This document shows positions 3,544 through 28,578 of a DNA stretch of 64,000 nucleotides, piece by piece. The number at the start of each line of letters is the position of its first letter. Positions within the stretch are counted from its first letter, which is position 1. The stretch is from Thermoproteota archaeon (GTDB taxonomy: Archaea; Thermoproteota; Methanomethylicia; Methanomethylicales; Methanomethylicaceae), in assembly GCA_020832905.1 (NCBI GenBank), contig JAJHRG010000001.1:564940-628939 (forward strand), read 5' to 3'. Position numbers and translations under genes: made by a program. The notes under the pieces were generated by a model that saw nothing but the letters and a program-made list of their open reading frames with translations, was not told where the DNA came from and made no database searches.

Positions 3544-3708
3544 TTGGAAAGATATGGAGAATGTGAATTTACATATGAAAAATGTAAGAAATGTGGAAGA
3601 AACTTTTATACTAGAGTAGATTCTCCAAAAGAATATTGTCCAGATTGTGAAAAAATAATAGAACTTGAAATTTTAGAAAAAAGAAAAAAATCAAAGACTT
3701 CTCCTTAA
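3544..3708 (+). CDS. Small zinc-ribbon protein (CxxC...CxxC), not in the ORF track
   Basis: TTG start 7 nt after AGGTG. 54 codons containing CKKC and CPDC pairs. Overlaps the 3' end of the convergent epimerase gene by 18 nt. Confidence 0.3.
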   Translation: MERYGECEFTYEKCKKCGRNFYTRVDSPKEYCPDCEKIIELEILEKRKKSKTSP

Positions 3709-4614
3709 CTCTATAGTAGCTTTTAAAGCTTTTTTAAAAGCTTCTTTTGCTTTTTCATTAGGAATAAAACTCAATTCTTTTCTTATTTTTTCATCATTTA
3801 ATATCCAATTACCAGTTAAGAAGCCAGGTCCTTTCCATTCTGAAGGATCTACTTCTATAATATTAGATTTTGATCCTGAAAGTTCAATAATCATTTCTAA
3901 AATTTCCTTCCAAGTAGTATTAAAACTTAAGATATTATATATCTTTCCAAAGGCATTTTTATTTAATAAAGCTAATTCAAATGCTTTTATTAAATCATTT
4001 ATATAAAGAATACTTCCTGCAGAACCTTTAGGTACATATAATACTTCATTTTTTAAAGCACTATCTATTATTTTTCTTAATGTCCCCCCTGGTATTCTTT
4101 CATCACTAAAAGCCCACCAAAATCTAAATATTGTAAATGGAAAACCTCTTTCTTTATAATATATTTCCATGGCTTTTTCTACTGCAAGTTTTGTAAGAGC
4201 ATGAGTTGGAGCTCTTGATTTTTCTACTAATAAAGGATGATCTTCTTTTATTGGAACAATAACAGGCTCTCCATAAATTACTGAGCTACTTGGAAATATT
4301 ATTTGCTTAACACCATACTGACAACATGCCTCAATAACATTTAAAAATCCAATAACATCAATTTTAAATCCATCTAGCATTTTTTCTGAAAATGACCATG
4401 CTGAATAGAATACAACATCACAACCATTTACTACATTTCTAACAGTATTTTCATCTTCTACTCCTCCAATTATGAATTTCATATTTGGATGTTCAAAGCC
4501 TTCTAATTCTCCTTTTGTTTTATCTAATACTATAACTTCATGATTTTTTTGAAGAAGTGCTTTTACTAGTCTACTTCCAACAAATCCTCCTCCACCAGTT
4601 ACTAAAATTCTCAT
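3691..4614 (-). CDS. NAD-dependent epimerase/dehydratase (SDR family, UDP-sugar epimerase-like)
   Basis: N-terminal Rossmann motif VTGGGGFVGSRL. Length 307 aa. Confidence 0.8.
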   Translation of the reverse strand: MRILVTGGGGFVGSRLVKALLQKNHEVIVLDKTKGELEGFEHPNMKFIIGGVEDENTVRNVVNGCDVVFYSAWSFSEKMLDGFKIDVIGFLNVIEACCQYGVKQIIFPSSSVIYGEPVIVPIKEDHPLLVEKSRAPTHALTKLAVEKAMEIYYKERGFPFTIFRFWWAFSDERIPGGTLRKIIDSALKNEVLYVPKGSAGSILYINDLIKAFELALLNKNAFGKIYNILSFNTTWKEILEMIIELSGSKSNIIEVDPSEWKGPGFLTGNWILNDEKIRKELSFIPNEKAKEAFKKALKATIELRRSL

Positions 4615-4663: not shown

Positions 4664-6022
4664 TTGAAAATTTGGCAAGGAGTTGAAGTAGAATACTGTG
4701 TTCCATATATTAATAGAAAAAACTATGTTAATGAATTATTAGAATCACTAAGAAATTATAAAATGCCATTAAAAAATACATCTCCTTTTCTAATGAAAAA
4801 AGATGGAAAATATACACAATTTCTTATTAATGGTGGAAGAGCATATGGAGATATAAGCTTTACACCAGGTGTATATGATATTTTAGAAATAACAACTCCA
4901 GAATGTCCAAATCCATTTTATACTCTTGCATATGAAAAAGCAACAGAAGTTTATGCAAGAATAGCATCAGATGAATTTGAAAGAACATCAGGAATGAGAG
5001 TACATTGTTATAAAATAAGTGTAGTAAAATCTGAATATGAGTATACCACTAGAGGACTTCATGAAAGTTATTTAGTAGAAAGAAAAGCTTTTGAAAATAA
5101 AATTATGGAATTAATTCCTTATTTAGTTATAAGACAAATATTTACAGGAACTGGTGGATATTATTTTGGAAGATTTTTAATATCACCAAGACAAATGTTT
5201 ATAAAATCAGTAGTTGCTGAGAAAATATTTGGAAATTGGCCATTAATTGCAGAAAGAGATGAACCACATGCAGATCCTAAATACAAAAGATTGCAAATTA
5301 CAAATGGAGAAGGAGCAAGAACTGAATGGACAATATTTATGAGACAAGCAATAACATCATATATAATTAAAGCTATTGAACTTGGATTAATAAAAGAATT
5401 ACCAAGAATTAAAGATCCTATTGAAGCTGCAAAATTAATTGCTATATCTCCAGAAGGAGATTGGAGTTTAGAATTAGAAAATGGAAAAGAAATTAAAGCA
5501 TTAGAAATTCTTTCATATTATTTAGAAGGTATAGAAAAATTATTTATGAATGAAGAAATAGATGATTATGATAAATATGCATTAAAAGAATTTAAATTTG
5601 TATTAAATAAATTAGAAGAAGGAGATTTTGAATCATTAAAAAATAGAATAGAATGGATTGTAAAACTTGAAATTTTAGAAAATAATTTTAATAAATATTT
5701 TGAAGGAAATGGAAGCGAAGAAGAAAAAATTATTGCAAATAATCAATTTTGTGCAATAACAGATGGAACTTTTGAAAGAATACAAGAAGAAATGAACTTA
5801 ATTACATTATTAAAAGATGAAGATTTATCAAAAGCAGTTCTATTTCCACCAGAAAATTCTAGAGCATATGCAAGAATAAAAATTGCTCAAATTTTAAAAG
5901 ATAAATTAGATGATATTGGATGGTCTTATATTATTGTAAATAGTAATAGATATCATATGCTAGAATTAGATGGATGGAATGATGAAAAAATTTCAAAATT
6001 TTTAAATGAAATTATTTCTTAA
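4664..6022 (+). CDS. Pup-ligase/deamidase family (PafA/Dop-like) carboxylate-amine ligase homolog, paralog 1
   Basis: 452 aa. Blocks matching my recollection of PafA: GVEVEYCV (GIETEFGV), HESYLV (HENYLI), IPYLVIRQIFTGTGG (LPFLVTRQLICGAGK), RDEPHADPKYKRLQI (RDEPHADAEKYRRLHV), IKDPIEAAKLIAISPEGD (LDNPIRAIREVSHD), IEWIVK (DWVIK). Confidence 0.75.
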   Translation: MKIWQGVEVEYCVPYINRKNYVNELLESLRNYKMPLKNTSPFLMKKDGKYTQFLINGGRAYGDISFTPGVYDILEITTPECPNPFYTLAYEKATEVYARIASDEFERTSGMRVHCYKISVVKSEYEYTTRGLHESYLVERKAFENKIMELIPYLVIRQIFTGTGGYYFGRFLISPRQMFIKSVVAEKIFGNWPLIAERDEPHADPKYKRLQITNGEGARTEWTIFMRQAITSYIIKAIELGLIKELPRIKDPIEAAKLIAISPEGDWSLELENGKEIKALEILSYYLEGIEKLFMNEEIDDYDKYALKEFKFVLNKLEEGDFESLKNRIEWIVKLEILENNFNKYFEGNGSEEEKIIANNQFCAITDGTFERIQEEMNLITLLKDEDLSKAVLFPPENSRAYARIKIAQILKDKLDDIGWSYIIVNSNRYHMLELDGWNDEKISKFLNEIIS

Positions 6023-6093: not shown

Positions 6094-7665
6094 ATGAAAA
6101 TATTAAAAGAAATGGCAAGAGGTTGTGAATACGAATTTAGTGTAAATAGATATCCACCAATTCTTCCTGGTATTCAACTTTCAGATATTATAGGAAGAAC
6201 AATACTTGCATTAAAAAATTTAGGATTTATATCTAAAGTAATGTGGAGTGTAGAAGATGAAATTGGAAATTTAACTTATGAACGTGGTTTATTTGATTCT
6301 TGGTTATTTGCAGAAGGACCTTATGAAATTGCTTTTAATGGAATGAGAATATATGATGATGCTCAACATTTAGAATTTTCTACTCCAGTATTTAGAAGTC
6401 CAATTGATGCAGTAGTTTATGATAAAGTTGCTGAAAGATTAGCTTTTTTAGGAATAGAACAAATAAGAAAAACTCATGGAGAATTATATTGTTATAAAAC
6501 TAATAATAGTCTATTAAAAGGATCTTATGGTTATGAAGCAGTAGCATGGGGGACTCATGGATGTTATTGTGTTAGTAGAAGAATTTTTAATTTTGAAAAT
6601 TGGAAAAATGTAGAAAAAATTCTTATTCCCTTCATTATAAGTAGAATTCCATTAATTGGTAGTGGAGGAGTATTACCTATAAGAAATGAATTTTCATTTG
6701 AACCTCCAACAAGTTCAAGATTATGTGGTGATAAAATAATATATGTAATTTCACCAAGAGCAATTTATATAAAACAATTATCATCTATTGATACTACAGT
6801 AGATCGTGGATTTTTAAATCTAAGAGATGAACCACATGCTAATCCTAATAAGTATTGGAGATTACATGATATAAATTTTGAAGCAATAAGAAGTGATTTT
6901 CAAATATTTATTAGAGATGCATTAGAAGTTTTTACATTAAGAGCAATTGAAGAAGGATTATTACAAAATCCACCAATAATTAAAGATCCAATAGAAGCTA
7001 TAAGAAAAGTTTCAATGAATATAAATGAAATTGATCAATTTATTGAATTAGAAGGAAGTAATAAAGCAAGATTACTATCAGATATACTTTCATATTATAT
7101 TTCTGCAATTGAAAAACTAATAGAATTAAGAGGAGATAATGAAGACCATAAAGTTTTTAAGGTTATAGAAAGTGTAATTCAGAAACTAAAAGAAGGATTA
7201 TTTGAATATTTAAATGGAGCTATTGATTGGATTGCAAAAATGATGCTAATAGAAGAATATAATGCTAAAGATATGGATATGGCTATTATATGTAATCAAT
7301 ATGGATTATTAGATGAAAATACAGGTTTTTATGAAGGAAGAATAGAAAAAGGTGATACTTTATTTGATCCTGAATCTTCCTTAGCTTTTCTTGAAGAAGT
7401 ATTTCCTTTTGTAAAATCAATAAAAGAGAAAATAAAGTATGGTATGAATAATCCTCCTACAGATACTAGAGAATATTTAAGAACAAATATTTTAAAAGAA
7501 CATGAATCAGAAATAATAAAAATGAATTGGTGGAAAATTTACTTTAAAGGAGGTTTAATTACTTTAGATGAGCCATTAAGATATGGAAAAGAAGAAAGTG
7601 AAGAAATTTTAAAGATAAAAGACTTAAAAAAATTATCTGAAGTTATAAGAGGTGAAGCTAAATGA
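6094..7665 (+). CDS. Pup-ligase/deamidase family (PafA/Dop-like) homolog, paralog 2 (longer, Dop-like length)
   Basis: 523 aa. The same conserved blocks are present: CEYEFSV, IPFIISRIPLIGSGG, RDEPHANPNKYWRLHD, IKDPIEAIRKVS, IDWIAKMM. It is about 70 aa longer than paralog 1, as Dop is relative to PafA. Confidence 0.75.
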   Translation: MKILKEMARGCEYEFSVNRYPPILPGIQLSDIIGRTILALKNLGFISKVMWSVEDEIGNLTYERGLFDSWLFAEGPYEIAFNGMRIYDDAQHLEFSTPVFRSPIDAVVYDKVAERLAFLGIEQIRKTHGELYCYKTNNSLLKGSYGYEAVAWGTHGCYCVSRRIFNFENWKNVEKILIPFIISRIPLIGSGGVLPIRNEFSFEPPTSSRLCGDKIIYVISPRAIYIKQLSSIDTTVDRGFLNLRDEPHANPNKYWRLHDINFEAIRSDFQIFIRDALEVFTLRAIEEGLLQNPPIIKDPIEAIRKVSMNINEIDQFIELEGSNKARLLSDILSYYISAIEKLIELRGDNEDHKVFKVIESVIQKLKEGLFEYLNGAIDWIAKMMLIEEYNAKDMDMAIICNQYGLLDENTGFYEGRIEKGDTLFDPESSLAFLEEVFPFVKSIKEKIKYGMNNPPTDTREYLRTNILKEHESEIIKMNWWKIYFKGGLITLDEPLRYGKEESEEILKIKDLKKLSEVIRGEAK

Positions 7666-7757
7666 GTGATATTTTACCATCTTTTAAGAAAAAAGAAAAA
7701 GTAGATAAAAAGTTAAAAAAAGAACATGCTGAACTTATTGCTCCACCTGGTGAATAA
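7662..7757 (+). CDS. Small ORF (31 aa, MSDILPSFKKKEKVDKKLKKEHAELIAPPGE) ending in Gly-Glu; candidate Pup/UBact-like modifier
   Basis: ATG overlaps the stop of the upstream Dop-like gene (ATGA). SD GGTGA lies 6 nt upstream. The C-terminal GE resembles mature Pup (GGE). Not in the ORF track because it is below the length cutoff. Confidence 0.4.
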   Translation: MSDILPSFKKKEKVDKKLKKEHAELIAPPGE

Positions 7758-7762
7758 TAAAC

Positions 7763-7791
7763 TTTTTTAATTATTTTTTATAATTAAAAAA
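7763..7791 (+). terminator. Inverted repeat TTTTTTAATT/AATTAAAAAA plus T-rich tract downstream of the small ORF
   Basis: Perfect 10-nt inverted repeat with a 9-nt loop, followed by oligo-T. A 16-nt palindrome TATAAACATGTTTATA sits at 7828-7843. Confidence 0.3.
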
Positions 7792-7893
7792 TTTTTAATG
7801 AAATTATTTAATTAAGTCAATAATCATTATAAACATGTTTATAACTGATTAATTTTTATAGAAATATTTTTATAGCTTTTTAAAAAATTTAAA

Positions 7894-8193
7894 TTGGGGG
7901 TTCTGGTGCCAGAAATAATACTTCGTATAAAAACATCTGATATTAAAGGCAATATAGGTCTTCTAAATCCACAAGATTTATCAAAACTTGGTGCAAAGGA
8001 AGGAGATGAAATAGAATTGTATTCAACTTCAAGAGCATGGACTATAAAGACAAAATCTGATTCTTCAGTACCTATAGGAGAAGTAAGAGTAAGCACAGAC
8101 GTTCTGAGAAGACTTGATGTAGAAGATGGAAGTGAAGTAAGAGCTTATTGGGCTCCTCCAGTAGTAGAAGAAAAATATGAACCCCCACCATGA
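7894..8193 (+). CDS. Stand-alone Cdc48/VAT N-terminal-like (double-psi beta-barrel) domain protein
   Basis: IILRI...G.IGL...LSKLGAKEGDEIEL...IGEVRVSTDVLRRLDVEDGSEVRA follows the VAT-Nn pattern (ILRV...SRVRLD...LG..GD.VEIE...G.IRID...G.S.GD.V.V). The likely start is GTG at 7906, after a GGGGG run. Only 9 nt separate it from the OFOR gene. Confidence 0.45.
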   Translation: MGVLVPEIILRIKTSDIKGNIGLLNPQDLSKLGAKEGDEIELYSTSRAWTIKTKSDSSVPIGEVRVSTDVLRRLDVEDGSEVRAYWAPPVVEEKYEPPP

Positions 8194-8202
8194 GGTGAGA
8201 TT

Positions 8203-9264
8203 TTGGCTATATTTGCAGTTGAATTTGATGGAAGAGGTGTAACACAAACTGCATTAATGAGAGCTGCTAGTGAAATCATTTGTACTGCTGCAGATAAGGA
8301 TGGATTTCCATCAATTGGATATGAAAGATACGATGATGCTCCTGATAGAGTTGGTGTACCAATTAAAGGATTTTCAGTAATATCAAGAACAGCTCCCGCT
8401 TCATATGAAAAAGATTTAGAAGATGTTGCAGTTGATGTTGAAAAACTTAGTCCTCCAACACCAGATTACTCATATTATCAAGTATGCTATGATGAATTAG
8501 CACCTGAAGCAATGCTATATGAGCCAAGAGCTGTAGATGCTGTACTAGTACTAGATGATACTTTAGTAAAAGGAGAAGAACCATGGGCTTATATAGGAGT
8601 ACAACCAATACATGAGAAATTAAAAGATGGAGGAGCAATAATAGTAAATAGTAAAAGAGATCCAGAATATCTTTTAGAATTTATTCATCCAACAACTAAA
8701 AGATATAAATTAGCAGTTATTGATGCAGATTCTATGGATAAAATAATTATATTACCATTAATAGGTGCTATGCTAAAAGTAGCTCCTGGTATTGTTTCAT
8801 ATAGATCAGTTATTGCTACTGTAAAGGAAAGATATAAAGCTGAAGGAATAAAGAAAGCACAAGTAATAAAAGATGCTTATAATAAAGTAAGATGGATAGA
8901 AGTTCCACCTGCTAAAGAACCAATACAAATAAAGAGAAAGAGAAAATTCCTTGAAGAATTTCCAAAATGGCATGAAATGCCTATAGGTCTTGTAGTTCCT
9001 GCACCTCCAGTAAATGGTCCAAATCCACACTTCAAAACTGATACATTTAGGACATATAGACCTGTAACAGATACAAGTAAGTGTAATAAAGATGGATTAT
9101 GTTGGTTATATTGTCCTGATTCTGCTAGAAGTCCAGATCCAGAGACATTTTTTGCTGTAAATCTTGAATATTGTAAAGGTTGTGGTATTTGTGCTGAAGT
9201 TTGTCCTGTTAAAGCAATTAAAATGGTTAATGAATTAGATTTTAGAGGTGAGAAATTATGGTAA
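8203..9264 (+). CDS. 2-oxoacid:ferredoxin oxidoreductase gamma-delta fusion subunit (POR/VOR family)
   Basis: N-terminal gamma-like region (FDGRGVTQTA). C-terminal delta-type 2x[4Fe-4S] region (CNKDGLCWLYCP, CKGCGICAEVCP). Confidence 0.8.
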   Translation: MAIFAVEFDGRGVTQTALMRAASEIICTAADKDGFPSIGYERYDDAPDRVGVPIKGFSVISRTAPASYEKDLEDVAVDVEKLSPPTPDYSYYQVCYDELAPEAMLYEPRAVDAVLVLDDTLVKGEEPWAYIGVQPIHEKLKDGGAIIVNSKRDPEYLLEFIHPTTKRYKLAVIDADSMDKIIILPLIGAMLKVAPGIVSYRSVIATVKERYKAEGIKKAQVIKDAYNKVRWIEVPPAKEPIQIKRKRKFLEEFPKWHEMPIGLVVPAPPVNGPNPHFKTDTFRTYRPVTDTSKCNKDGLCWLYCPDSARSPDPETFFAVNLEYCKGCGICAEVCPVKAIKMVNELDFRGEKLW

Positions 9265-10448
9265 GAGTTATAACAACTGGAACTGTTGCAATTGCAACTG
9301 CTGTTAAACATGCAGATGTTGATGTAATATCTGCATATCCAATTAGACCATATACAGGAGTAATGAATGAATTAGCAAGAATGATTGCTGATGGAGAATT
9401 AGATGCAGAGTTCATTGTATGTGATTCAGAACATACACAATTTGAAATTGCAAAACATGCTGCAGCATGTGGTGCAAGAGTATTTACTGGTAGTGCAGGT
9501 ATTGGATGGGCATATGCTCATGAAGCTATTGTTGTTACACCAACAGATAGAGTTCCAGTAGTTGCAATGGTTGGAAATAGAGCATTAGATGATCCAGGAA
9601 ACTTTGGTGTAGAACATACAGATGTTTTAGTTGCAAGAGATTTAGGATGGATGATGTGCTGGCCTGAAAATCCACAAGAAGCTTATGATTTAACATTAAT
9701 GGGTTATAAGATTGCTGAAAATCCTAATGTGCTATTACCATATATAGTAAATTGTGATGGAAACTTTATTACTCATGTAAGATTTCCAGTAGATCTTCCT
9801 GATGAAGAACTTGCAAGAGAATTCTTACCACCAACTCCACCACCAAGACCAAATATACTACATCCAGATAAACCAATATCTATAGCTCCACATGTAGACT
9901 ATTACTGGGGAACTGAAATAAGAAGACAAATGGATCAAGCAATGAAGAATGCTATTGAAGTAACAAAAAGAGTTCATGAAGAATTTAATAAGATATTTGG
10001 TAGAGGAGGACCTCCATTTATTGAAGAAATTAATACAAAAGATGCTGATGTTGCTATGATAGGAGTAGGCGGAATGACAATGGTAGCAAGAGCAGCAGTA
10101 AGAGAATTAAGACAAAAGGGAATAAATATAGGTTTTGTAAAGCTTAGAAGATTTAGACCATTTGCTACTGAAGAAATAAGAGAAGCTTTAAGGAAATTTA
10201 AAGTAGTTGCTGTATTAGATAATGACTTCTCATTTGGATCTGCACATTGTGGAGGAATATTATTCCAGGAAATTCGATCTGCTTTATATGATCTATCTGA
10301 AAGACCAATTGTTGTTAATTACTTAATTGGACTTGGTGGAAGAGAAATTACTGTTGATGCAATGAAGAGAATTGGTAAGGAGATATATGAAATATCAAAG
10401 ACAAAAGAAGTTAAACATATAGTTAAATGGGTTGATGTTAGGGAGTGA
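9258..10448 (+). CDS. 2-oxoacid:ferredoxin oxidoreductase alpha subunit
   Basis: Typical PorA/VorA N-terminus (GTVAIATAVKHADVDVISAYPIRP). 396 aa. Overlaps its neighbours. Confidence 0.85.
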   Translation: MVRVITTGTVAIATAVKHADVDVISAYPIRPYTGVMNELARMIADGELDAEFIVCDSEHTQFEIAKHAAACGARVFTGSAGIGWAYAHEAIVVTPTDRVPVVAMVGNRALDDPGNFGVEHTDVLVARDLGWMMCWPENPQEAYDLTLMGYKIAENPNVLLPYIVNCDGNFITHVRFPVDLPDEELAREFLPPTPPPRPNILHPDKPISIAPHVDYYWGTEIRRQMDQAMKNAIEVTKRVHEEFNKIFGRGGPPFIEEINTKDADVAMIGVGGMTMVARAAVRELRQKGINIGFVKLRRFRPFATEEIREALRKFKVVAVLDNDFSFGSAHCGGILFQEIRSALYDLSERPIVVNYLIGLGGREITVDAMKRIGKEIYEISKTKEVKHIVKWVDVRE

Positions 10449-11382
10449 TAATATGAGTTGGGAGAAGATAGAAATAAGAACACTTAAAGATGTTCCTAAA
10501 GAGGAATATTATGTAGCAGGACATAGAACATGTCAAGGATGTGGTCCTGCTCTTGCATGTAGATTAATAGCAAAAGCTGCAGGTCCAAGAACTGTATGTA
10601 TTGTTGCTACTGGATGTATGTATGTAGCAAATAGTAGTTATAATACAACTCCATGGGCAATACCATGGATGCATGCACAATTAGGAGGAATAGGCTCAGC
10701 AGTAGCTGGTGCAGCAGCTGCATTTAAAGCTATGATGAGAAAAGGAAAAATAAAGAAAGAAGAAATTCATGTTTTAGGAATTGCAGGAGATGGTGGTGCT
10801 GCAGATATAGGTCTTTCAGCTATATCTGGTGCTATGCTATCAGGTGGTGATCACTTAATAATTACATATGATAATGAATCTTATGCAAATACTGGAATTC
10901 AAGCTTCAAGTTTAACTCCATGGGGTGCTTGGACAACATTTACTCCTCCAGGAAAAATGTTAAGACTTGGAAATGTAAGAGTTAAAAAAGATTTACCAAG
11001 AATGATTGCTGCAGGACATCCTAATGTACGCTATGTAGCAACTGCAAGTATATCATTTCCATTTGATTTAATGACAAAAGTAAGAAAAGGATTAGCTGTA
11101 AAAGGTCCAGCTTTTATACAAATTCATACACCATGTCCTAAGGGATGGAAATTCCCACCAGAATTAACCATAAGAATAGGTAGATTAGCTGTAGAAACAG
11201 GAATGTGGACATTATATGAAGTTGAAGATGGACAATTTAGATTAACTTTCAAGCCTCCAAAGAGAAAACCAGTATCAGAATACTTAAAACTTCAAGGAAG
11301 ATTTGCTCACTTAAGAGAACCAGATATTAGATATATACAAGAACAAGTAGATGCTGCTTGTAAGCAATTAGGTATTGACTAA
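10432..11382 (+). CDS. 2-oxoacid:ferredoxin oxidoreductase beta subunit (TPP-binding)
   Basis: CQGCG motif and the TPP-binding block GDGGAADIG...YDNESYANTG. Confidence 0.85.
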   Translation: MMLGSDNMSWEKIEIRTLKDVPKEEYYVAGHRTCQGCGPALACRLIAKAAGPRTVCIVATGCMYVANSSYNTTPWAIPWMHAQLGGIGSAVAGAAAAFKAMMRKGKIKKEEIHVLGIAGDGGAADIGLSAISGAMLSGGDHLIITYDNESYANTGIQASSLTPWGAWTTFTPPGKMLRLGNVRVKKDLPRMIAAGHPNVRYVATASISFPFDLMTKVRKGLAVKGPAFIQIHTPCPKGWKFPPELTIRIGRLAVETGMWTLYEVEDGQFRLTFKPPKRKPVSEYLKLQGRFAHLREPDIRYIQEQVDAACKQLGID

Positions 11383-13895: not shown

Positions 13896-15353
13896 GTGAT
13901 AATAATGATAAAAGAAGAATATAATGAAATTATCTCTGGAATTGTAGGAATATTGATAATTTCAGGTATTATAATGTTAATTCCAATTATTCCCTTAGTG
14001 GTATATAGTGAGTATGCTCAATTGCCTTTCTTTTTATTTTCCTCCATCATCTTATTAATAATAGGAGGATATTTCTATAGAAAATACCCCCTTCCTGAAG
14101 ATATTACAATGAAATCTGCAATTGTTATTGCTAGTATTGCTTGGCTTTTAATATCACTAATTGGAACAATACCATACTTAAGTATAGGTATGAATATTAT
14201 TGATGGATTTTTTGAATCAATGAGTGGATTTACTACAACTGGTATGACATTAATTAGTGTTTTGGAAATATGTCCAAGATCTATATTATTTTGGAGGAGC
14301 TTAAGTGAATGGATTGGAGGAATTGGAATAATCTTTCTTTTTACAATATTATTAAAAGGAAGTATAGGTACATGGAAATTATATAGAATTGAAGGAAGAG
14401 AAAAATTTACAATAAGTGTAAAAGAAAGTATAAGAAATATAATGATTATATATACAACTTTAACTATAGTTTGTACAATTTTATTATATTTAAGTGGATT
14501 AGATGTTTTTGATTCAATAAATCATGCAATGACAACCATTTCTACAGGAGGATTTTCTACAAAAACAGATAGTATAACTAACTTCAGTATCTTGACAAAA
14601 ATAATAATAATTATGTTTATGATAATTGGTGCAATTGATTTTGCATTAATTAATGAAATTATAAAACTTAAGATAAAAAAAGTAATAAGCGATCCTGAAT
14701 TCAAAGCCTTTATATTTATAATCATAATTAGTATTTTATTAGTTTACATATTGAATTCAAAGGAAATGAGCTTTAGCATAAATGAATTATTTAATACAAT
14801 ATCAATAGTAACTACAACTGGCTATACAAGTGGTGATATACTTTTATGGCCTAATTCCACTAAGGTTTTACTATTAATACTTATGACAATAGGTGGATGT
14901 GCAAATTCAACTGCAGGAGGAATAAAAGTATGGAAATTATTAATACTATTCAAACTTTTAAGAAGAGAATTAAAAAGACTATTGTTACCTCCTTCTATAA
15001 TAATGCCTATAAAGATAGGAGATAAAACATTTGATGATGAATATTTAATTAAAATATGTACTTTCTTCTTTAGCTATATAGTACTAATATTCATAATCTT
15101 CTTATTACTAAGTATTAATATTCCTGATACATTTGGAGCGTTATCATTAGCCATTTCTTCTATTAATAATATAGGACCTGCTTACTATCCTATTGATAAG
15201 CTTGATTTATTTTCAAAAATAATATTAATAATTAGTATGTGGATGGGTAGACTTGAATTATTTCCAGTAATGGCTTTTATTTTTGAATTCATTCCAGAAA
15301 CTTTTAAAAATATATTATCAAGAAGATTTAGAAAGGAGTACGAGTATACTTAA
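13896..15353 (+). CDS. trkH: TrkH/KtrB-family K+ transporter membrane subunit
   Basis: SGFTTTG and T(T)GYTSG selectivity-filter-like repeats. 485 aa, polytopic. Confidence 0.8.
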   Translation: MIIMIKEEYNEIISGIVGILIISGIIMLIPIIPLVVYSEYAQLPFFLFSSIILLIIGGYFYRKYPLPEDITMKSAIVIASIAWLLISLIGTIPYLSIGMNIIDGFFESMSGFTTTGMTLISVLEICPRSILFWRSLSEWIGGIGIIFLFTILLKGSIGTWKLYRIEGREKFTISVKESIRNIMIIYTTLTIVCTILLYLSGLDVFDSINHAMTTISTGGFSTKTDSITNFSILTKIIIIMFMIIGAIDFALINEIIKLKIKKVISDPEFKAFIFIIIISILLVYILNSKEMSFSINELFNTISIVTTTGYTSGDILLWPNSTKVLLLILMTIGGCANSTAGGIKVWKLLILFKLLRRELKRLLLPPSIIMPIKIGDKTFDDEYLIKICTFFFSYIVLIFIIFLLLSINIPDTFGALSLAISSINNIGPAYYPIDKLDLFSKIILIISMWMGRLELFPVMAFIFEFIPETFKNILSRRFRKEYEYT

Positions 15354-16590
15354 AAATTTCACAATATTTTTCATTTAATTTTAAATTTCCTACTTGTATG
15401 AGAGAAATATCATCACTTACTGGTGTTATTATTTTCATTTTTCTTTCTTCATAATTTATTTCTGATATTATTCCAAGTCCTAAGAATTTTCCATTATCTT
15501 TATAAAGACCAACAATTATTCCTTTTTCAGAACCTTTCTTTATAGCAATTAATTCATCACAAATTTTTTCTTTATTTGTTATATTTGGTTCATCTTCAGT
15601 TACTAAAAATAAGAATTTTCCATTAGTTTCTCCATAAAGTATTTTTAAGCATAATTCTTTACTTAGTTTTTCTAATAATTCTTTTGATAATGGATTACCA
15701 TAAGTATAATAAGAACATATAATTTTTGTTGATTTTAAATCTATAATTCTTTCCTTACTATTAGCAAAATATTTACTATATGCATTTTCACGTTTTTCTT
15801 TTCTTTCTTCTCTACTTCTTATTCTTGATGCTGATGAAGATGTTATTCTTATTACATTTTCAAAATTTCTTATTATATGTTCTAATTCATTTCCTTTTTG
15901 AATTGCAATAATAAAATCAGGAGAAATTATTTGAATTAATGAGCATTTATATTCTCTTGCATATATACCATTAACCCATCCACATGTATTTATAATGATT
16001 ATATCAGCATTATTATTTAAAGCATTATCAACAAGCTTTTTAGCACTTACTATCATTTTCATTGGAGCATCAGATGGTGTAGTTGTTCCAATAAATATTG
16101 CATCAGTTAATGGAATTTTATCCATAGAAATAATTGTATTATTTAAAAAGCCATAACCAATAGTTGTTGGTAATGATATTTCAGCTTGTCCTGGATCTAA
16201 ATCAATAACAGCAACTTTCATTCCATACTGAAATGCTATATTTGCTAAATATACTGAAAAAGTTGTTTTACCACTATCTGTATCTCCTATTACCATAACC
16301 TTTATTGGAGGTTTACTTTTAATTATTTTTTCAACAGCATCTTTCCAGCATAAAGGTATAGGATTAGGGATTTCTTTTATACATGCATTACTTCCAAGAT
16401 TAATTTCAATAAGTGAATCTTCTAGTACTTCTACTGGTATAGATTTTCCTTTTGGTATTATTATTTCCTCTCCTAATGTAACAGATTTTCCTAAAGCTAA
16501 AATTTTTCCATTACGTAAGCATAAATATGCAGGACCATATACTACAAAAGAGGACATTTTTGTTAAGTTCATTTGCAACAAATAATACAC
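15328..16590 (-). CDS. Clp1/Grc3-family polynucleotide 5'-hydroxyl kinase (archaeal Clp1-like)
   Basis: P-loop GDTDSGKTT followed by a DLDPGQ motif. 420 aa. Confidence 0.6.
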   Translation of the reverse strand: MYYLLQMNLTKMSSFVVYGPAYLCLRNGKILALGKSVTLGEEIIIPKGKSIPVEVLEDSLIEINLGSNACIKEIPNPIPLCWKDAVEKIIKSKPPIKVMVIGDTDSGKTTFSVYLANIAFQYGMKVAVIDLDPGQAEISLPTTIGYGFLNNTIISMDKIPLTDAIFIGTTTPSDAPMKMIVSAKKLVDNALNNNADIIIINTCGWVNGIYAREYKCSLIQIISPDFIIAIQKGNELEHIIRNFENVIRITSSSASRIRSREERKEKRENAYSKYFANSKERIIDLKSTKIICSYYTYGNPLSKELLEKLSKELCLKILYGETNGKFLFLVTEDEPNITNKEKICDELIAIKKGSEKGIIVGLYKDNGKFLGLGIISEINYEERKMKIITPVSDDISLIQVGNLKLNEKYCEIFKYTRTPF

Positions 16591-27768: not shown

Positions 27769-28578
27769 ATGAAAATCATTAACTTATTATTACTAAGTCT
27801 ATTATTTTCACTTATACTAGCTTATCCTATATTAGCTCAATCTAATAATATGTACATAAAACTTCAAAAATTTACAATTTATGATATTAATCGTGATTTT
27901 ATATACATAGAATATTTAGGAGAAGAAGATATTATAGTTTTAATTGTAAAATCAGATTCTAATTTAGATATAGTAAAACAAAGTATCGGTATTGGTTATG
28001 GTAGTATTACAATACATATTAAAAATACTTCATATAAATTAGGATCATGTATAATTGCTTTATTCTCTACAAAATCCTTTTTACTAAATATATCTATGAG
28101 AATGGGAGAAATACCACTACAAACTCAAACAATTTCTGTACCTGCTAATATTACATTACAAATGGAAATACCAATAGAATATGGTGGTTATCAACAGCCA
28201 ATATATACTATTACTAATGTTTCATATACTCCATATTTTCCAATATGGACTCTTTTAACATATGCTATAATATTACCAATGTTTATTATAACAGGATATT
28301 TAGATAAAAACTCATTGAAAATTATGAGAAAACGTTGGACACAATTAGATACATTTGCCATTATAATAAGATATGCTTTTTATGCTTTTTTAGTAATATT
28401 CATTATAGTAACTATTGAAATTGTAGTAGAATACATATTATCTAGACTTAATATTTATGCAATAAGTTTACATATAGGAGATTGGTTTATCTCATGTATT
28501 TTATTTTCTATATTTACTATAATATATGGAATAGGAAAATGGAGGGGAATATTTGAAAATGTTGATGGAGAAGAGTGA
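27769..28578 (+). CDS. Hypothetical membrane protein with N-terminal signal peptide
   Basis: Signal-like N-terminus plus C-terminal TM helices. Confidence 0.35.
   Translation: MKIINLLLLSLLFSLILAYPILAQSNNMYIKLQKFTIYDINRDFIYIEYLGEEDIIVLIVKSDSNLDIVKQSIGIGYGSITIHIKNTSYKLGSCIIALFSTKSFLLNISMRMGEIPLQTQTISVPANITLQMEIPIEYGGYQQPIYTITNVSYTPYFPIWTLLTYAIILPMFIITGYLDKNSLKIMRKRWTQLDTFAIIIRYAFYAFLVIFIIVTIEIVVEYILSRLNIYAISLHIGDWFISCILFSIFTIIYGIGKWRGIFENVDGEE

What the first reader, a model, noticed from the sequence alone, without database searches (positions are those of the whole stretch)
7662..7757. Translationally coupled 31-aa ORF ending in -Pro-Pro-Gly-Glu directly after the Dop-like gene
The ATG overlaps the upstream stop (ATGA), and the SD GGTGA sits at optimal spacing inside the upstream gene. 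The product MSDILPSFKKKEKVDKKLKKEHAELIAPPGE ends in Gly-Glu. Pup modifiers end in GGQ or GGE and are ligated through the side-chain carboxylate of the terminal Glu. Unlike Pup, this peptide is Lys-rich and basic rather than acidic. If it is a modifier, it is a divergent family. Alternatively it may be a lysine-donor substrate or a regulator.
Basis: seen in the sequence. Interest (0 to 1): 0.8.

Follow-up and report, generated by a model that had tools for sequence, protein, structure and literature searches.

The report
Archaeal Pup-like tag peptide gene
A 31-codon gene in a methanogen-related archaeon encodes a small basic peptide that sits next to two Pup-ligase-type enzymes and always ends in Gly-Glu or Gly-Gln, which suggests that a bacterial-style protein-tagging system, never described in archaea, exists there with a new kind of tag.

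Summary
ORF 7662-7757(+) overlaps the stop of the upstream Dop-like gene (ATGA), has a GGTGA Shine-Dalgarno 6 nt upstream, and encodes MSDILPSFKKKEKVDKKLKKEHAELIAPPGE.

It is a real gene:
- All 28 archaeal-type loci with sequence available carry one copy next to the Pup-ligase-family (PF03136) genes.
- Synonymous sites are saturated while pN is 0.01-0.12.
- A profile search finds 75 unnamed peptide clusters.

Across 78 peptides the tail is almost fixed: H at -10, A at -5 and G at -2 are invariant. The last residue is only Gln (40) or Glu (38), which is the dimorphism that defines Pup (GGQ/GGE).

Both enzymes have the Dop/PafA fold (TM 0.82-0.85). B keeps all named Dop active-site residues and a Trp-acidic "Dop-loop"; A lacks the loop. 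Three divergent relatives place a proteasome-type AAA+ ATPase directly upstream.

The peptide is not a sequence member of Pup or UBact (no HMM hit; hhalign ≤0.08%; controls positive). The enzymes form two deep archaeal clades outside bacterial Dop+PafA.

Best reading (about 0.6): a third class of Pup-like modifier, the first in Archaea (Methanomethylicota, Bathyarchaeota, Methanosarcinales). Conjugation itself is untested.

The parts
4664..6022 (+). Paralog A (452 aa): a Pup-ligase family enzyme without a Dop-loop. It is the candidate ligase (inferred).
   Evidence: PF03136 E 1.1e-59. It is below the NCBIfam PafA and Dop equivalog cut-offs. It has GhExE (QGVEVEY), R-x-Y-x-D (GGRAYGD), a 7-aa insertion after that Asp, HE, DEPHA and the C-terminal Trp. 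The alignment register A51=Dop82 and A39=PafA41 shows there is no Dop-loop. The AF2 model has pLDDT 92.4; Foldseek gives Dop TM 0.84-0.85 and PafA-Pup 0.81.
6094..7665 (+). Paralog B (523 aa): a Dop-like Pup-ligase family enzyme. It is the candidate deamidase/deconjugase (inferred).
   Evidence: PF03136 E 5.7e-54. TIGR03688 Dop scores 176 bits against PafA 121. In the PDB, Dop 9cku gives 1e-29 against PafA 6e-12. R85/Y87/D89, H155, R244, H248, R256, H258 and W479 are invariant; they correspond to Dop R90/Y92/D94, H155, R227, H231, R239, H241 and W453 (PMC8599861). The N-terminal insertion carries W51-S-V-E-D-E, resembling Dop-loop W47-DFEEE. The AF2 model has pLDDT 93.7, and its best fold matches are Dop-Pup complexes at TMt 0.82-0.83.
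7651..7655 (+). Shine-Dalgarno-like GGTGA, 6 nt upstream of the ATG and inside the 3' end of gene B.
   Evidence: Read directly. The element is conserved as (A/G)GGTGA or GAGTGA 6-9 nt upstream of the peptide ATG in L001-L008.
7662..7757 (+). The 31-aa peptide gene (MSDILPSFKKKEKVDKKLKKEHAELIAPPGE). Its ATG overlaps the stop of B (ATGA).
   Evidence: It is conserved in all archaeal-type loci. Purifying selection is shown. The peptide family has 75 clusters. There is one copy in the window. No Rfam family matches here.
7734..7754 (+). Codons for the conserved C-terminal tail L-I-A-P-P-G-E. This is the proposed active-site-entering tail with the reactive terminal Glu.
   Evidence: Over 78 family members, column -7 is V/L/I, -6 is V/I, -5 is A in 78/78, -4 is P in 77, -3 is P in 75 and S in 3, -2 is G in 78/78, and -1 is Q in 40 and E in 38. 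Relatives use different synonymous codons for the same residues.
7763..7796 (+). Oligo-T runs (7763-7768, 7774-7779, 7792-7796) after the double stop TAATAA. This is the likely archaeal terminator of the A-B-peptide operon.
   Evidence: The sequence is. Function is inferred from the general knowledge that archaeal transcription terminates at oligo-T tracts. The next genes (PFOR subunits from 8203) have their own upstream AT-rich region.

Best explanation
The ORF encodes a small, basic, probably unstructured protein-modifier peptide. It is the cognate substrate of the two adjacent Pup-ligase-family enzymes and represents an archaeal analogue of Pup and UBact. Proposed mechanism, with the status of each step marked: (1) The peptide is translated by coupling to gene B (shown: ATGA overlap and a conserved SD). 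(2) Its invariant, proline-stiffened tail V-[VI]-A-P-P-G-[E/Q] enters the beta-sheet-cradle active site of a Dop/PafA-fold enzyme (inferred from the fold and from the invariance of the tail). (3) In lineages that encode a terminal Gln, the Dop-like paralog B deamidates it to Glu. In this window the peptide already ends in Glu and is ligation-ready (inferred from the E/Q dimorphism and from B keeping the full Dop active site and a Dop-loop). [quoted passage not shown] Paralog A, which lacks the Dop-loop, is the likelier ligase (inferred; this is the weakest step). (5) B also removes the tag (inferred). The fate of tagged proteins is unknown. Adjacent Mpa-like or Cdc48-like AAA+ unfoldase genes in three divergent relatives point to unfolding or proteasomal delivery. 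The short (27-47 aa) forms such as this one have no such neighbour and hardly more sequence than the 27-residue ligase-binding part of Pup, so a regulatory, non-degradative role is equally possible.
For: The gene is real and tied to the enzymes. One copy lies next to the PF03136 pair in 8/8 close relatives, in 12 more divergent loci with enzyme identity down to 30%, and in 7/7 metagenome loci with room downstream. The gene order changes between lineages (A-B-pep; pep-A-B in L015; AAA-B-pep-A in L017) but the trio stays together. Selection: pN is 0.01-0.12 while pS is 0.3 to about 1. Tail chemistry: among 78 peptides the last residue is only Q (40) or E (38), G at -2, A at -5 and H at -10 are invariant, and E/Q switches occurred in at least two separate lineages. 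This matches the defining G[EQ] signature of Pup and its position next to a PafA paralog (PMC2588565). Enzymes: both pass the Pfam PF03136 threshold. The AF2 models have pLDDT 92-94, and their best fold matches are Dop and PafA-Pup at TM 0.80-0.85, against about 0.45-0.59 for other carboxylate-amine ligases. B keeps all Dop residues named in PMC8599861 and has a W-acidic loop; A lacks the loop, as PafA does (PMC7947786). Positive control: the same small-ORF scan on bacterial loci recovers canonical Pup in about 45 of 72 loci and UBact in one, both confirmed by NCBIfam. The archaeal peptide therefore occupies the positional slot of Pup and UBact. Unfoldase link: an AAA+ gene lies directly upstream on the same strand in L017 (CDC48 family, 668 bits), L025 (Methanosarcinales; PAN 176 and pup_AAA 173 bits) and L026 (pup_AAA 275 bits).
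Against: There is no biochemical, proteomic or expression evidence of any kind. The peptide has no detectable sequence similarity to Pup or UBact, so homology of the tag is not established. At 31 aa the peptide is barely longer than the 27-residue ligase-binding part of Pup (PMC8599861), which leaves little to engage an unfoldase. No AAA+ or 20S gene is adjacent in the window; the ten largest ORFs were checked, and the nearest AAA+ gene is an odd Cdc48-Lon fusion 21 kb away. The assignment of A as ligase is weak. In the window clade the Dop H241-equivalent is Gln. The R227-equivalent is Ile or Val in close relatives. In the Bathyarchaeota clade A lacks the catalytic Asp and Arg altogether. In L003 no A gene lies within 6 kb of B and the peptide. 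B lacks the Glu that follows His155 in Dop, PafA and A. Phylogenetically, A and B are not one-to-one orthologs of PafA and Dop, so functions cannot simply be transferred.
Confidence: 0.6

Rival explanations
1. Carrier or scaffold peptide for small-molecule chemistry. The terminal Glu gamma-carboxylate is ligated by the GS/GCS-like enzyme to a small amine (an amino acid, polyamine or cofactor precursor) rather than to protein lysines. This is how LysW carries alpha-aminoadipate, or how RiPP-type scaffold peptides are extended. B releases or recycles the product.
For: [quoted passage not shown] YbdK and GCL are the next-best fold matches. In Bathyarchaeota the operon is flanked on both sides by several amidohydrolases, a peptidase M55, DUF3830 and a PhzF-like protein. 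The peptide is very short for a degradation tag. The E/Q dimorphism fits this reading equally well.
Against: No accessory enzyme is conserved across lineages: the neighbours are Nramp, epimerase and PFOR here, amidohydrolases in Bathyarchaeota, and AAA+ ATPases in L017, L025 and L026. Only the trio is constant. The closest folds by a wide margin are Dop and PafA, including their family-specific C-terminal domain. The peptide has no Cys or zinc motif such as LysW has, and there is no ATP-grasp partner. AAA+ unfoldase neighbours make sense for protein tagging and not for metabolite synthesis.
Confidence: 0.15
2. Non-covalent regulator. The peptide binds the groove of A and/or B as an activator, inhibitor or assembly factor, and is perhaps itself deamidated, without ever being conjugated to other proteins.
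For: Translational coupling gives near-stoichiometric synthesis with B. B and the peptide stay together even where A is absent nearby (L003). [quoted passage not shown]
Against: A pure regulator would leave the two enzymes with no identified substrate in any of about 28 loci. Strict retention of a free terminal E/Q, with nothing after it, together with an invariant G at -2 is what a reactive terminus requires rather than a binding peptide. No PF03136 enzyme is known to have a substrate other than a G[EQ]-terminated peptide (PMC2588565, PMC7947786).
Confidence: 0.1
3. Lysine-donor (acceptor) substrate. The Lys-rich peptide supplies the amine, and some other carboxylate is ligated onto it. A variant of this idea is that peptides are joined head-to-tail into chains.
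For: The peptide has 8 Lys in 31 residues. Positions -12, -20, -24 and -25 are almost always Lys and not Arg.
Against: Most other basic columns interchange K and R freely: -23 is R60/K13, -19 is R46/K27, and -9 is R32/K25. That indicates selection for charge rather than for an amine. The most constrained part of the peptide is the C-terminal tail and not the lysines. A pure amine donor would not need a terminal E/Q.
Confidence: 0.05
4. Chance ORF or non-coding feature. The open frame is an accident of an AT-rich spacer or an RNA element.
For: It is very short and lies in a 25% GC region. Most annotation pipelines did not call it in several genomes.
Against: Amino-acid sequence is conserved while synonymous sites are saturated. 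The ORF is found in 28 loci, with different codons for the same tail. No Rfam family matches the region. The ORF is more conserved than its flanks.
Confidence: 0.01

Closest known systems
Pup (prokaryotic ubiquitin-like protein; PF05639 / TIGR03687) with PafA and Dop in Actinobacteria and Nitrospirae
   Same: The gene for a small peptide lies directly downstream of the Dop-type paralog. The extreme C-terminus is G-[E/Q], with both E and Q forms in nature. Two PF03136 paralogs are present, one with a Dop-loop and one without. The enzymes share the Dop/PafA two-domain fold and the nucleotide and catalytic motifs. A proteasome-type AAA+ ATPase gene is adjacent in some relatives.
   Different: There is no sequence similarity (hhalign 0.05%, no HMM hit). 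The peptide is 31 aa against 60-90 aa, and basic (net +2 to +11 across the family) against strongly acidic (-7 to -14). The tail is A-P-P-G-[EQ] with an invariant His at -10, instead of Q-K-G-G-[EQ]. The hosts are Archaea. The enzymes form two deep clades outside bacterial Dop+PafA and fall far below the NCBIfam equivalog cut-offs. No 20S or Mpa genes are present in this locus.
UBact (NF033388), the Pup-like modifier of Nitrospirae, Verrucomicrobia, Planctomycetes and others
   Same: It is a short, net-basic, Lys/Arg-rich peptide ending in G-[EQ], encoded next to Dop/PafA-type enzymes. The example found here is L102, net +5, ending ...RRYRQRTGQ.
   Different: The UBact HMM does not hit the archaeal peptides although it scores the control at 84.6 bits, and hhalign gives 0.08%. 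The tail differs (R-Q-R-[TS]-G-[EQ] against V-V-A-P-P-G-[EQ]). The peptide is shorter, and the hosts are archaeal.
LysW amino-group carrier protein (with LysX/ArgX) of Thermus and Sulfolobus
   Same: It is a small protein whose C-terminal Glu gamma-carboxylate is the site of ATP-dependent amide-bond formation (from established knowledge). The ending ...G-E is superficially similar.
   Different: LysW is acidic and has a zinc-binding Cys motif. Its ligase is an ATP-grasp enzyme and it lies in Lys/Arg biosynthesis clusters. Here the peptide has no Cys and is basic, the partners are GS-fold PF03136 enzymes, and there are no biosynthetic neighbours.
SAMPs, Urm1 and ubiquitin-like beta-grasp modifiers of Archaea
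   Same: They are small protein modifiers attached to lysines in archaea, some of them linked to the proteasome (PMC3511204, PMC4569737).
   Different: Those are beta-grasp domains of 70 aa or more that end in Gly-Gly and are activated by E1-like adenylation through the alpha-carboxylate. This peptide is too short for a beta-grasp fold, ends in Glu or Gln, and is paired with carboxylate-amine ligases.

Membership tests
Pup (PF05639 / TIGR03687) | Sequence match to the family profile | tested here: not met
   No Pfam or NCBIfam hit at E<=10 for five archaeal peptides or for the 38-aa type. The archaeal profile hits no Pup chain in the PDB at E<=10. hhalign against Mtb Pup and against an 18-sequence Pup alignment gives 0.05%. 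As a control, a metagenomic Pup scores 67.2 bits.
Pup (PF05639 / TIGR03687) | C-terminal G-[E/Q] with a free terminal Glu or Gln | tested here: met
   The window peptide ends PPGE-stop. All 78 family members end in G-E (38) or G-Q (40).
Pup (PF05639 / TIGR03687) | Gene adjacent to a PafA/Dop paralog | tested here: met
   The gene overlaps the stop of the Dop-like gene. The same position is found in all archaeal-type loci. It is the slot that real Pup occupies in bacterial loci.
Pup (PF05639 / TIGR03687) | About 60-90 aa and acidic, with an N-terminal part that engages the Mpa unfoldase | tested here: not met
   The peptide is 31 aa with net charge +2, and the family ranges from +2 to +11, against Pup at -7 to -14. 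Only the divergent L017 (91 aa) and L026 (65 aa) peptides are Pup-sized.
Pup (PF05639 / TIGR03687) | Isopeptide conjugation of the terminal Glu gamma-carboxylate to protein lysines | not testable with these tools
   This needs biochemistry or proteomics.
UBact (NF033388) | Sequence match to the UBact profile, with tail R-[TS]-G-[EQ] | tested here: not met
   No hit at E<=10. hhalign gives 0.08%. The control UBact from L102 scores 84.6 bits. The tail here is A-P-P-G-E.
Pup-ligase/Dop enzyme family (PF03136), applied to the two neighbouring enzymes | Profile match above Pfam's gathering score | tested here: met
   A scores 203 bits and B scores 184 bits, against a cut-off of 25.
Pup-ligase/Dop enzyme family (PF03136), applied to the two neighbouring enzymes | GhExE nucleotide motif, catalytic-loop Asp, and the two-domain fold with the family-specific C-terminal domain | tested here: met
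   The motifs are shown. The AF2 models match Dop and PafA-Pup at TM 0.80-0.85 for A and TMt 0.73-0.83 for B over the whole chain.
PafA (TIGR03686 equivalog) | Score above the equivalog cut-off, the PafA catalytic-loop signature L-D-V-G-S-H-P-E-Y-A-T-A, and the alpha-loop signature | tested here: not met
   A scores 145 bits and B scores 121 bits, against a cut-off of 551. The A loop reads Y-G-D plus a 7-aa insert ... L-E-I-T-T-P, and its alpha-loop residues match neither PafA nor Dop (table in PMC7947786). A forms its own clade with 100/100 bootstrap. The only PafA-like trait is the absence of the Dop-loop.
Dop (TIGR03688 equivalog) | Score above the equivalog cut-off | tested here: not met
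   B scores 176 bits and A scores 157 bits, against a cut-off of 492. B forms its own clade outside bacterial Dop+PafA (97-100/100).
Dop (TIGR03688 equivalog) | Dop-loop insertion with a conserved Trp followed by acidic residues, no insertion after the catalytic Asp, and an S-T-P motif | tested here: met
   B has W51-S-V-E-D-E in an insertion of about 30 aa that is absent from A. It also has Y-D-D-A-Q-H-L-E-F-S-T-P and equivalents of R90, Y92, D94, H155, R227, H231, H241 and W453 (PMC8599861, PMC7947786). Caveat: the loop is shortened and lacks the Trp in the L018/L019 clade.
LysW-type amino-group carrier protein | Zinc-binding Cys motif, acidic EDWGE-type tail, ATP-grasp ligase partner, and a Lys/Arg biosynthesis context | tested here: not met
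   The peptide has no Cys. Its partners are GS-fold enzymes and not ATP-grasp enzymes, and its neighbours are Nramp, epimerase and PFOR. The defining features of LysW are taken from established knowledge.

The most novel reading that the evidence does not exclude
Pup-type tagging through the side chain of a C-terminal Glu is not a bacterial invention that was occasionally passed around. It is also an old archaeal system, with its own modifier family and two enzyme lineages that split from the bacterial Dop/PafA stem before Dop and PafA diverged. Under this reading, the tagging chemistry may have travelled with the archaeal-type proteasome and AAA+ unfoldase, or even originated in Archaea. The short basic form seen here would be a derived, unfoldase-independent regulatory tag.
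Probability: 0.15. Interest if true: 0.9.

Novelty: new variant of a known kind. Interest (0 to 1): 0.78.

Why it matters
Pupylation is treated in the literature as a bacterial pathway found in Actinobacteria, Nitrospirae and a few other phyla. A 2020 survey lists no archaea (PMC7947786), and a 2025 review makes no mention of archaeal pupylation (PMC12288473). Archaea are thought to tag proteins only with beta-grasp modifiers such as SAMPs, Urm1 and ubiquitin-like proteins. A conserved operon of two enzymes and a peptide in Methanomethylicota, Bathyarchaeota and a Methanosarcinales MAG would add a second, chemically different tagging system to Archaea. It would define a third modifier family beside Pup and UBact. 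It would also supply two deep enzyme lineages that help root the question of how a ligase (PafA) and a hydrolase (Dop) diverged. The 31-38-aa tag is close to the minimal ligase-binding module, which makes it a compact natural system for dissecting recognition and possibly a very small orthogonal tag for proximity-labelling tools that now use PafA and Pup. The hypothesis can be tested directly with three small recombinant components.

Tried and rejected
No complex model exists.

2. Pfam and NCBIfam scans of the peptides up to E=10 gave nothing meaningful.

3. A profile search of the PDB with the peptide alignment gave only chance hits: mL104 at E 0.28 and Atg16 at E 2.9.

4. hhalign of the peptide family against Pup, UBact and the L026 65-aa peptide gave no relationship. 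BLASTP of the L026 peptide against Pup also gave none.

5. An Rfam scan of 7300-8300 gave no match. The bacterial sigma-70 and intrinsic-terminator scan is not informative for an archaeon and showed no enrichment.

6. Assignment of A to PafA and B to Dop by orthology was rejected. NJ with bootstrap puts A and B in separate deep clades outside bacterial Dop+PafA. Only the Dop-likeness of B is supported, by motifs and the loop.

7. A conserved functional neighbour was sought and not found. The neighbours differ between lineages (Nramp, epimerase, PFOR, amidohydrolases, MFS transporters). The recurrence of PFOR, epimerase and CLP1 is probably residual synteny.

8. The ten largest other ORFs of the window contain no 20S proteasome or PAN gene.

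9. Seven literature searches for archaeal PafA, Dop or Pup found no report. The library holds open-access papers only, and the original UBact paper is not in it.

10. Charge complementarity of the binding groove could not be tested, because model coordinates and the list of Pup-contact residues were not available.
Full report
OBSERVATION

One search shows ...AGAGGTGAAGCTAAATGAGTG.... GGTGA lies at 7651-7655, and ATG at 7662-7664 overlaps the TGA (7663-7665) that ends the 523-aa ORF 6094-7665. The 31-codon frame ends GCT CCA CCT GGT GAA TAA TAA at 7740-7760 and is followed by oligo-T runs. The product is MSDILPSFKKKEKVDKKLKKEHAELIAPPGE. In-frame stops 2 and 4 codons upstream fix the start.

The upstream gene and the gene before it (4664-6022) are both Pup_ligase family proteins (PF03136), with E 5.7e-54 and 1.1e-59.

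The window is from an archaeon. The best relatives are Candidatus Methanomethylicota (Verstraetearchaeota) MAGs at 65-92% identity. The window also encodes a digeranylgeranylglycerophospholipid reductase and CLP1.

IS IT A GENE?

Yes.

- In all 8 related genome loci the same ORF follows the Dop-like gene and ends APPGE-stop. A conserved (A/G)GGTGA or GAGTGA lies 6-9 nt before its ATG, although the C-terminus of the upstream protein differs.
- Nei-Gojobori counts give pN 0.01-0.12 against pS 0.12 to about 1.0, which is mostly saturated. Omega is 0.03-0.28 where it can be computed. The tail A-P-P-G-E is written with different synonymous codons in different genomes.
- The ORF is better conserved than the 100 nt after it.
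- Nothing in Rfam matches the region.
- At greater distance, where the Dop-like protein is 30-43% identical, every locus again has one such ORF.
- The single metagenome scan gave 8 further archaeal-type loci. Seven have sequence downstream of the enzyme gene, and all seven carry the peptide.
- A profile search of 5.8 billion proteins found 75 clusters of 30-63 aa. All are unnamed or 'hypothetical' and none has a Pfam domain.

THE PEPTIDE FAMILY

Seventy-eight members were aligned from the C-terminus.

| Position from C-terminus | Residues |
|---|---|
| -1 | Q 40, E 38, nothing else |
| -2 | G 78/78 |
| -3 | P 75, S 3 |
| -4 | P 77, A 1 |
| -5 | A 78/78 |
| -6 | V 70, I 8 |
| -7 | V 74, L 2, I 2 |
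| -10 | H 78/78 |

Upstream of this tail lie a basic stretch and an [LF]-P-S-F-K-K motif. Net charge ranges from +2 to +11 with a median of +6, against -12 for M. tuberculosis Pup.

The strict E/Q alternation at the very last residue is the key finding. It occurs in at least two separate lineages: L015, and within the Bathyarchaeota 38-mers. This is the signature that Iyer et al. (PMC2588565) used to define Pup homologues: a G[EQ] end, with the gene next to a PafA paralog. It is explained in Pup by the need for Dop to deamidate Gln to Glu before ligation (PMC8599861, PMC7947786).

Many basic columns swap K and R freely, for example -23, -19 and -9. The selection is therefore largely for charge. 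Four columns (-12, -20, -24, -25) are almost always Lys.

THE ENZYMES

Both have the N-terminal GhExE motif (A: G-V-E-V-E; B: G-C-E-Y-E).

B keeps every Dop residue singled out in PMC8599861. The equivalents of R90, Y92, D94, H155, R227, H231, H241 and W453 are invariant across 26 B sequences. B has the Dop-type S-T-P motif and no insertion after the catalytic Asp (table in PMC7947786). It also has an N-terminal insertion of about 30 residues carrying W-S-V-E-D-E, which resembles the Dop-loop W47-DFEEE.

A lacks that insertion. The alignment registers are A51=Dop82 and A39=PafA41. A has a 7-residue disordered insertion after its Asp.

AlphaFold2 models are confident: pLDDT 92.4 and 93.7, pTM 0.93 and 0.94. 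Foldseek places both next to Dop and the PafA-Pup complex. For A, TM is 0.84-0.85 to Dop and 0.80-0.81 to PafA-Pup. For B, TMt is 0.82-0.83 to Dop-Pup and 0.73 to PafA-Pup. Other carboxylate-amine ligases reach only about 0.45-0.59.

Neither enzyme reaches the NCBIfam equivalog cut-offs for PafA or Dop.

An exhaustive HMMER search of 1.84 billion representatives finds only about 17 full-length B-type clusters. The rest is a tail of ordinary family members that align from residue ~79 onward.

A bootstrapped NJ tree separates three clades:

- archaeal A (100/100)
- archaeal B (100/100)
- bacterial Dop+PafA (97/100)

Mean identities are 26% for A-B, 25-26% for A or B against Dop or PafA, and 34% for Dop against PafA. 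A and B are therefore two new deep subfamilies and not orthologues of PafA and Dop.

CONTEXT

Only the trio is constant. Gene order varies: A-B-peptide here, peptide-A-B in L015, and AAA-B-peptide-A in L017. In L003, B and the peptide occur with no A within 6 kb, so B-peptide is the tightest pair.

Three divergent relatives have a proteasome-type AAA+ ATPase directly upstream on the same strand:

- L017: CDC48 family, 668 bits
- L025, a Methanosarcinales MAG: PAN 176 bits and pup_AAA 173 bits over the full length
- L026: pup_AAA 275 bits

The two of these with a visible peptide have long ones: 91 aa ending HVSGE, and 65 aa ending KDGQ. The loci without an AAA+ neighbour have 27-47-aa peptides. 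That is about the size of the 27-residue segment of Pup that binds the ligase groove (PMC8599861). With n=2 this correlation is only a lead.

COMPARISON WITH KNOWN MODIFIERS

The same mechanical small-ORF scan, applied to the 72 bacterial Dop-type loci from the metagenome search, recovered canonical Pup (...QKGG[EQ], mostly net -7 to -14) in about 45 loci. It recovered UBact in one locus (...RRYRQRTGQ, net +5). NCBIfam recognises these controls: Pup scores 67.2 bits and UBact 84.6 bits. It recognises none of the archaeal peptides. Profile-profile comparison gives 0.05% against Pup and 0.08% against UBact.

The archaeal peptide therefore occupies the Pup/UBact slot and shares the reactive terminus. 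It shares net basicity with UBact. It is nevertheless a separate sequence family.

MECHANISM

The best explanation, at about 0.6, is a Pup-like modifier. The tail enters the cradle. The terminal Glu, produced from Gln by B where needed, is activated with ATP and joined to a lysine. A is the likelier ligase and B the deamidase/deconjugase.

What is shown:
- the gene is real, is translationally coupled, and is linked to the enzymes
- the terminal E/Q dimorphism
- the fold and motifs of the enzymes

What is inferred:
- binding mode
- conjugation to proteins
- division of labour between A and B
- fate of the tagged proteins

Weak points:
- In the window clade, A has Gln at the H241-equivalent position.
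- Close relatives have Ile or Val at the R227-equivalent position.
- Bathyarchaeota A proteins lack the catalytic Asp and Arg (C-Y-[IV]-H).
- B lacks the Glu after His155.
- No complex model could be made.

Rivals are a carrier or scaffold peptide for small-molecule ligation (0.15), a non-covalent regulator (0.1), a lysine donor (0.05), and a chance ORF (0.01, refuted).

NOVELTY

Seven full-text searches found no report of PF03136 systems or Pup-like tags in Archaea. The 2020 phylogenetic survey lists only bacterial phyla. Database annotations already call the archaeal enzymes 'PafA2 family protein', so their presence is visible. The peptide, however, is unnamed everywhere. I rate this a new variant of a known kind. 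The chemistry and enzyme family are known. The modifier family, the enzyme subfamilies and the domain of life are new. The literature search covers open-access text only, so an earlier mention elsewhere cannot be excluded.

Noticed in passing
window 28553-31267 (+): A 904-aa protein combines a Cdc48-like double AAA+ module (TIGR01243, 214 bits; two PF00004 stretches) with a C-terminal Lon protease domain (PF05362). This is an unusual Cdc48-Lon fusion. It lies 21 kb from the tag locus and could be a receptor or protease for tagged proteins.
   Followed up: partly
L017:3-5670: The most divergent archaeal-type locus (B 30% identical) reads Cdc48-family AAA+ (668 bits), then B, then a 91-aa peptide ending ...KPIHVSGE (ATGA-type overlap), then A. 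It resembles the actinobacterial Mpa-Dop-Pup...PafA order and has a Pup-sized tag. The organism is unknown; GC is 34%.
   Followed up: partly
L026:449-4947: The locus reads Mpa-like AAA+ (pup_AAA 275 bits, coiled-coil N-terminus), then a Dop-like enzyme (284 bits), then a 65-aa ORF ending ...AAKKFKQKDGQ, then a second Pup-ligase. The 65-mer is not recognised by the Pup or UBact models, so it may be a further modifier class. The enzyme groups with the bacterial clade. The taxon is unknown (GCA_039731935.1).
   Followed up: partly
L025:2305-5916: A Methanosarcinales MAG (GCA_046760965.1) carries an AAA+ gene (PAN and pup_AAA about equal, over the full length), then an A-like enzyme (531 aa), then a B-like enzyme cut by the contig end. 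The system therefore also exists outside Thermoproteota. The peptide could not be seen.
   Followed up: partly
L018, L019, L021, L023 (paralog A); window 4664-6022 for comparison: In the Bathyarchaeota clade with 36-40-aa peptides, paralog A has G-G-[VL]-C-Y-[IV]-H-S-N-L-F-E instead of G-G-R-A-Y-G-D...Y-D-I-L-E. It has no Arg and no Asp in the catalytic loop. Either His takes over as the base or A is not the catalyst there.
   Followed up: partly
window 6094-7665 (B residues 154-157) and all B orthologs: B has T-H-G/V/Y/S where Dop, PafA and paralog A have H-E-N/S. The Glu that follows the conserved active-site His is missing in the whole B clade. This is unexplained.
   Followed up: no
window 4664-6022 (A residues ~197-212); L004-L008: In paralog A the Dop R227-equivalent is Arg in the window and L002, but Ile or Val in L004, L005, L006 and L008. 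The H241-equivalent is Gln in the window clade and His in most other lineages. This is unusual variability at phosphate-binding positions.
   Followed up: no
L003:1-13560: This Methanomethylicales MAG has B and the peptide but no paralog A anywhere in the 13.5 kb fetched, whereas its near relative L004 has A about 290 nt upstream of B. The B-peptide pair is the most stable unit.
   Followed up: partly
L006:4612-5943 (- strand): The 1.3-kb gap between A and B holds a stop-riddled remnant with a C-x-x-C...C-P-K-C-G zinc-finger motif typical of TnpB / IS605 OrfB. It looks like a decayed insertion inside the operon.
   Followed up: no
window 3691-4614 (-), 8203-11382 (+), 15328-16590 (-); L011, L013, L020, L025: An NAD-dependent epimerase divergent from A, a four-subunit-type 2-oxoacid:ferredoxin oxidoreductase operon next to the peptide gene, and a CLP1-type P-loop protein all recur around the trio in several Methanomethylicota and Bathyarchaeia loci, in varying orientation. 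This is probably residual synteny, but a functional link was not excluded.
   Followed up: no
L021:3795-12408, L023:5140-13827, L018:1026-2738: In Bathyarchaeota the trio is embedded among three or four amidohydrolase genes (PF01979, PF07969), a peptidase M55, DUF3830 and a PhzF-like gene. This is the only context that would favour a small-molecule or peptide-processing role.
   Followed up: no
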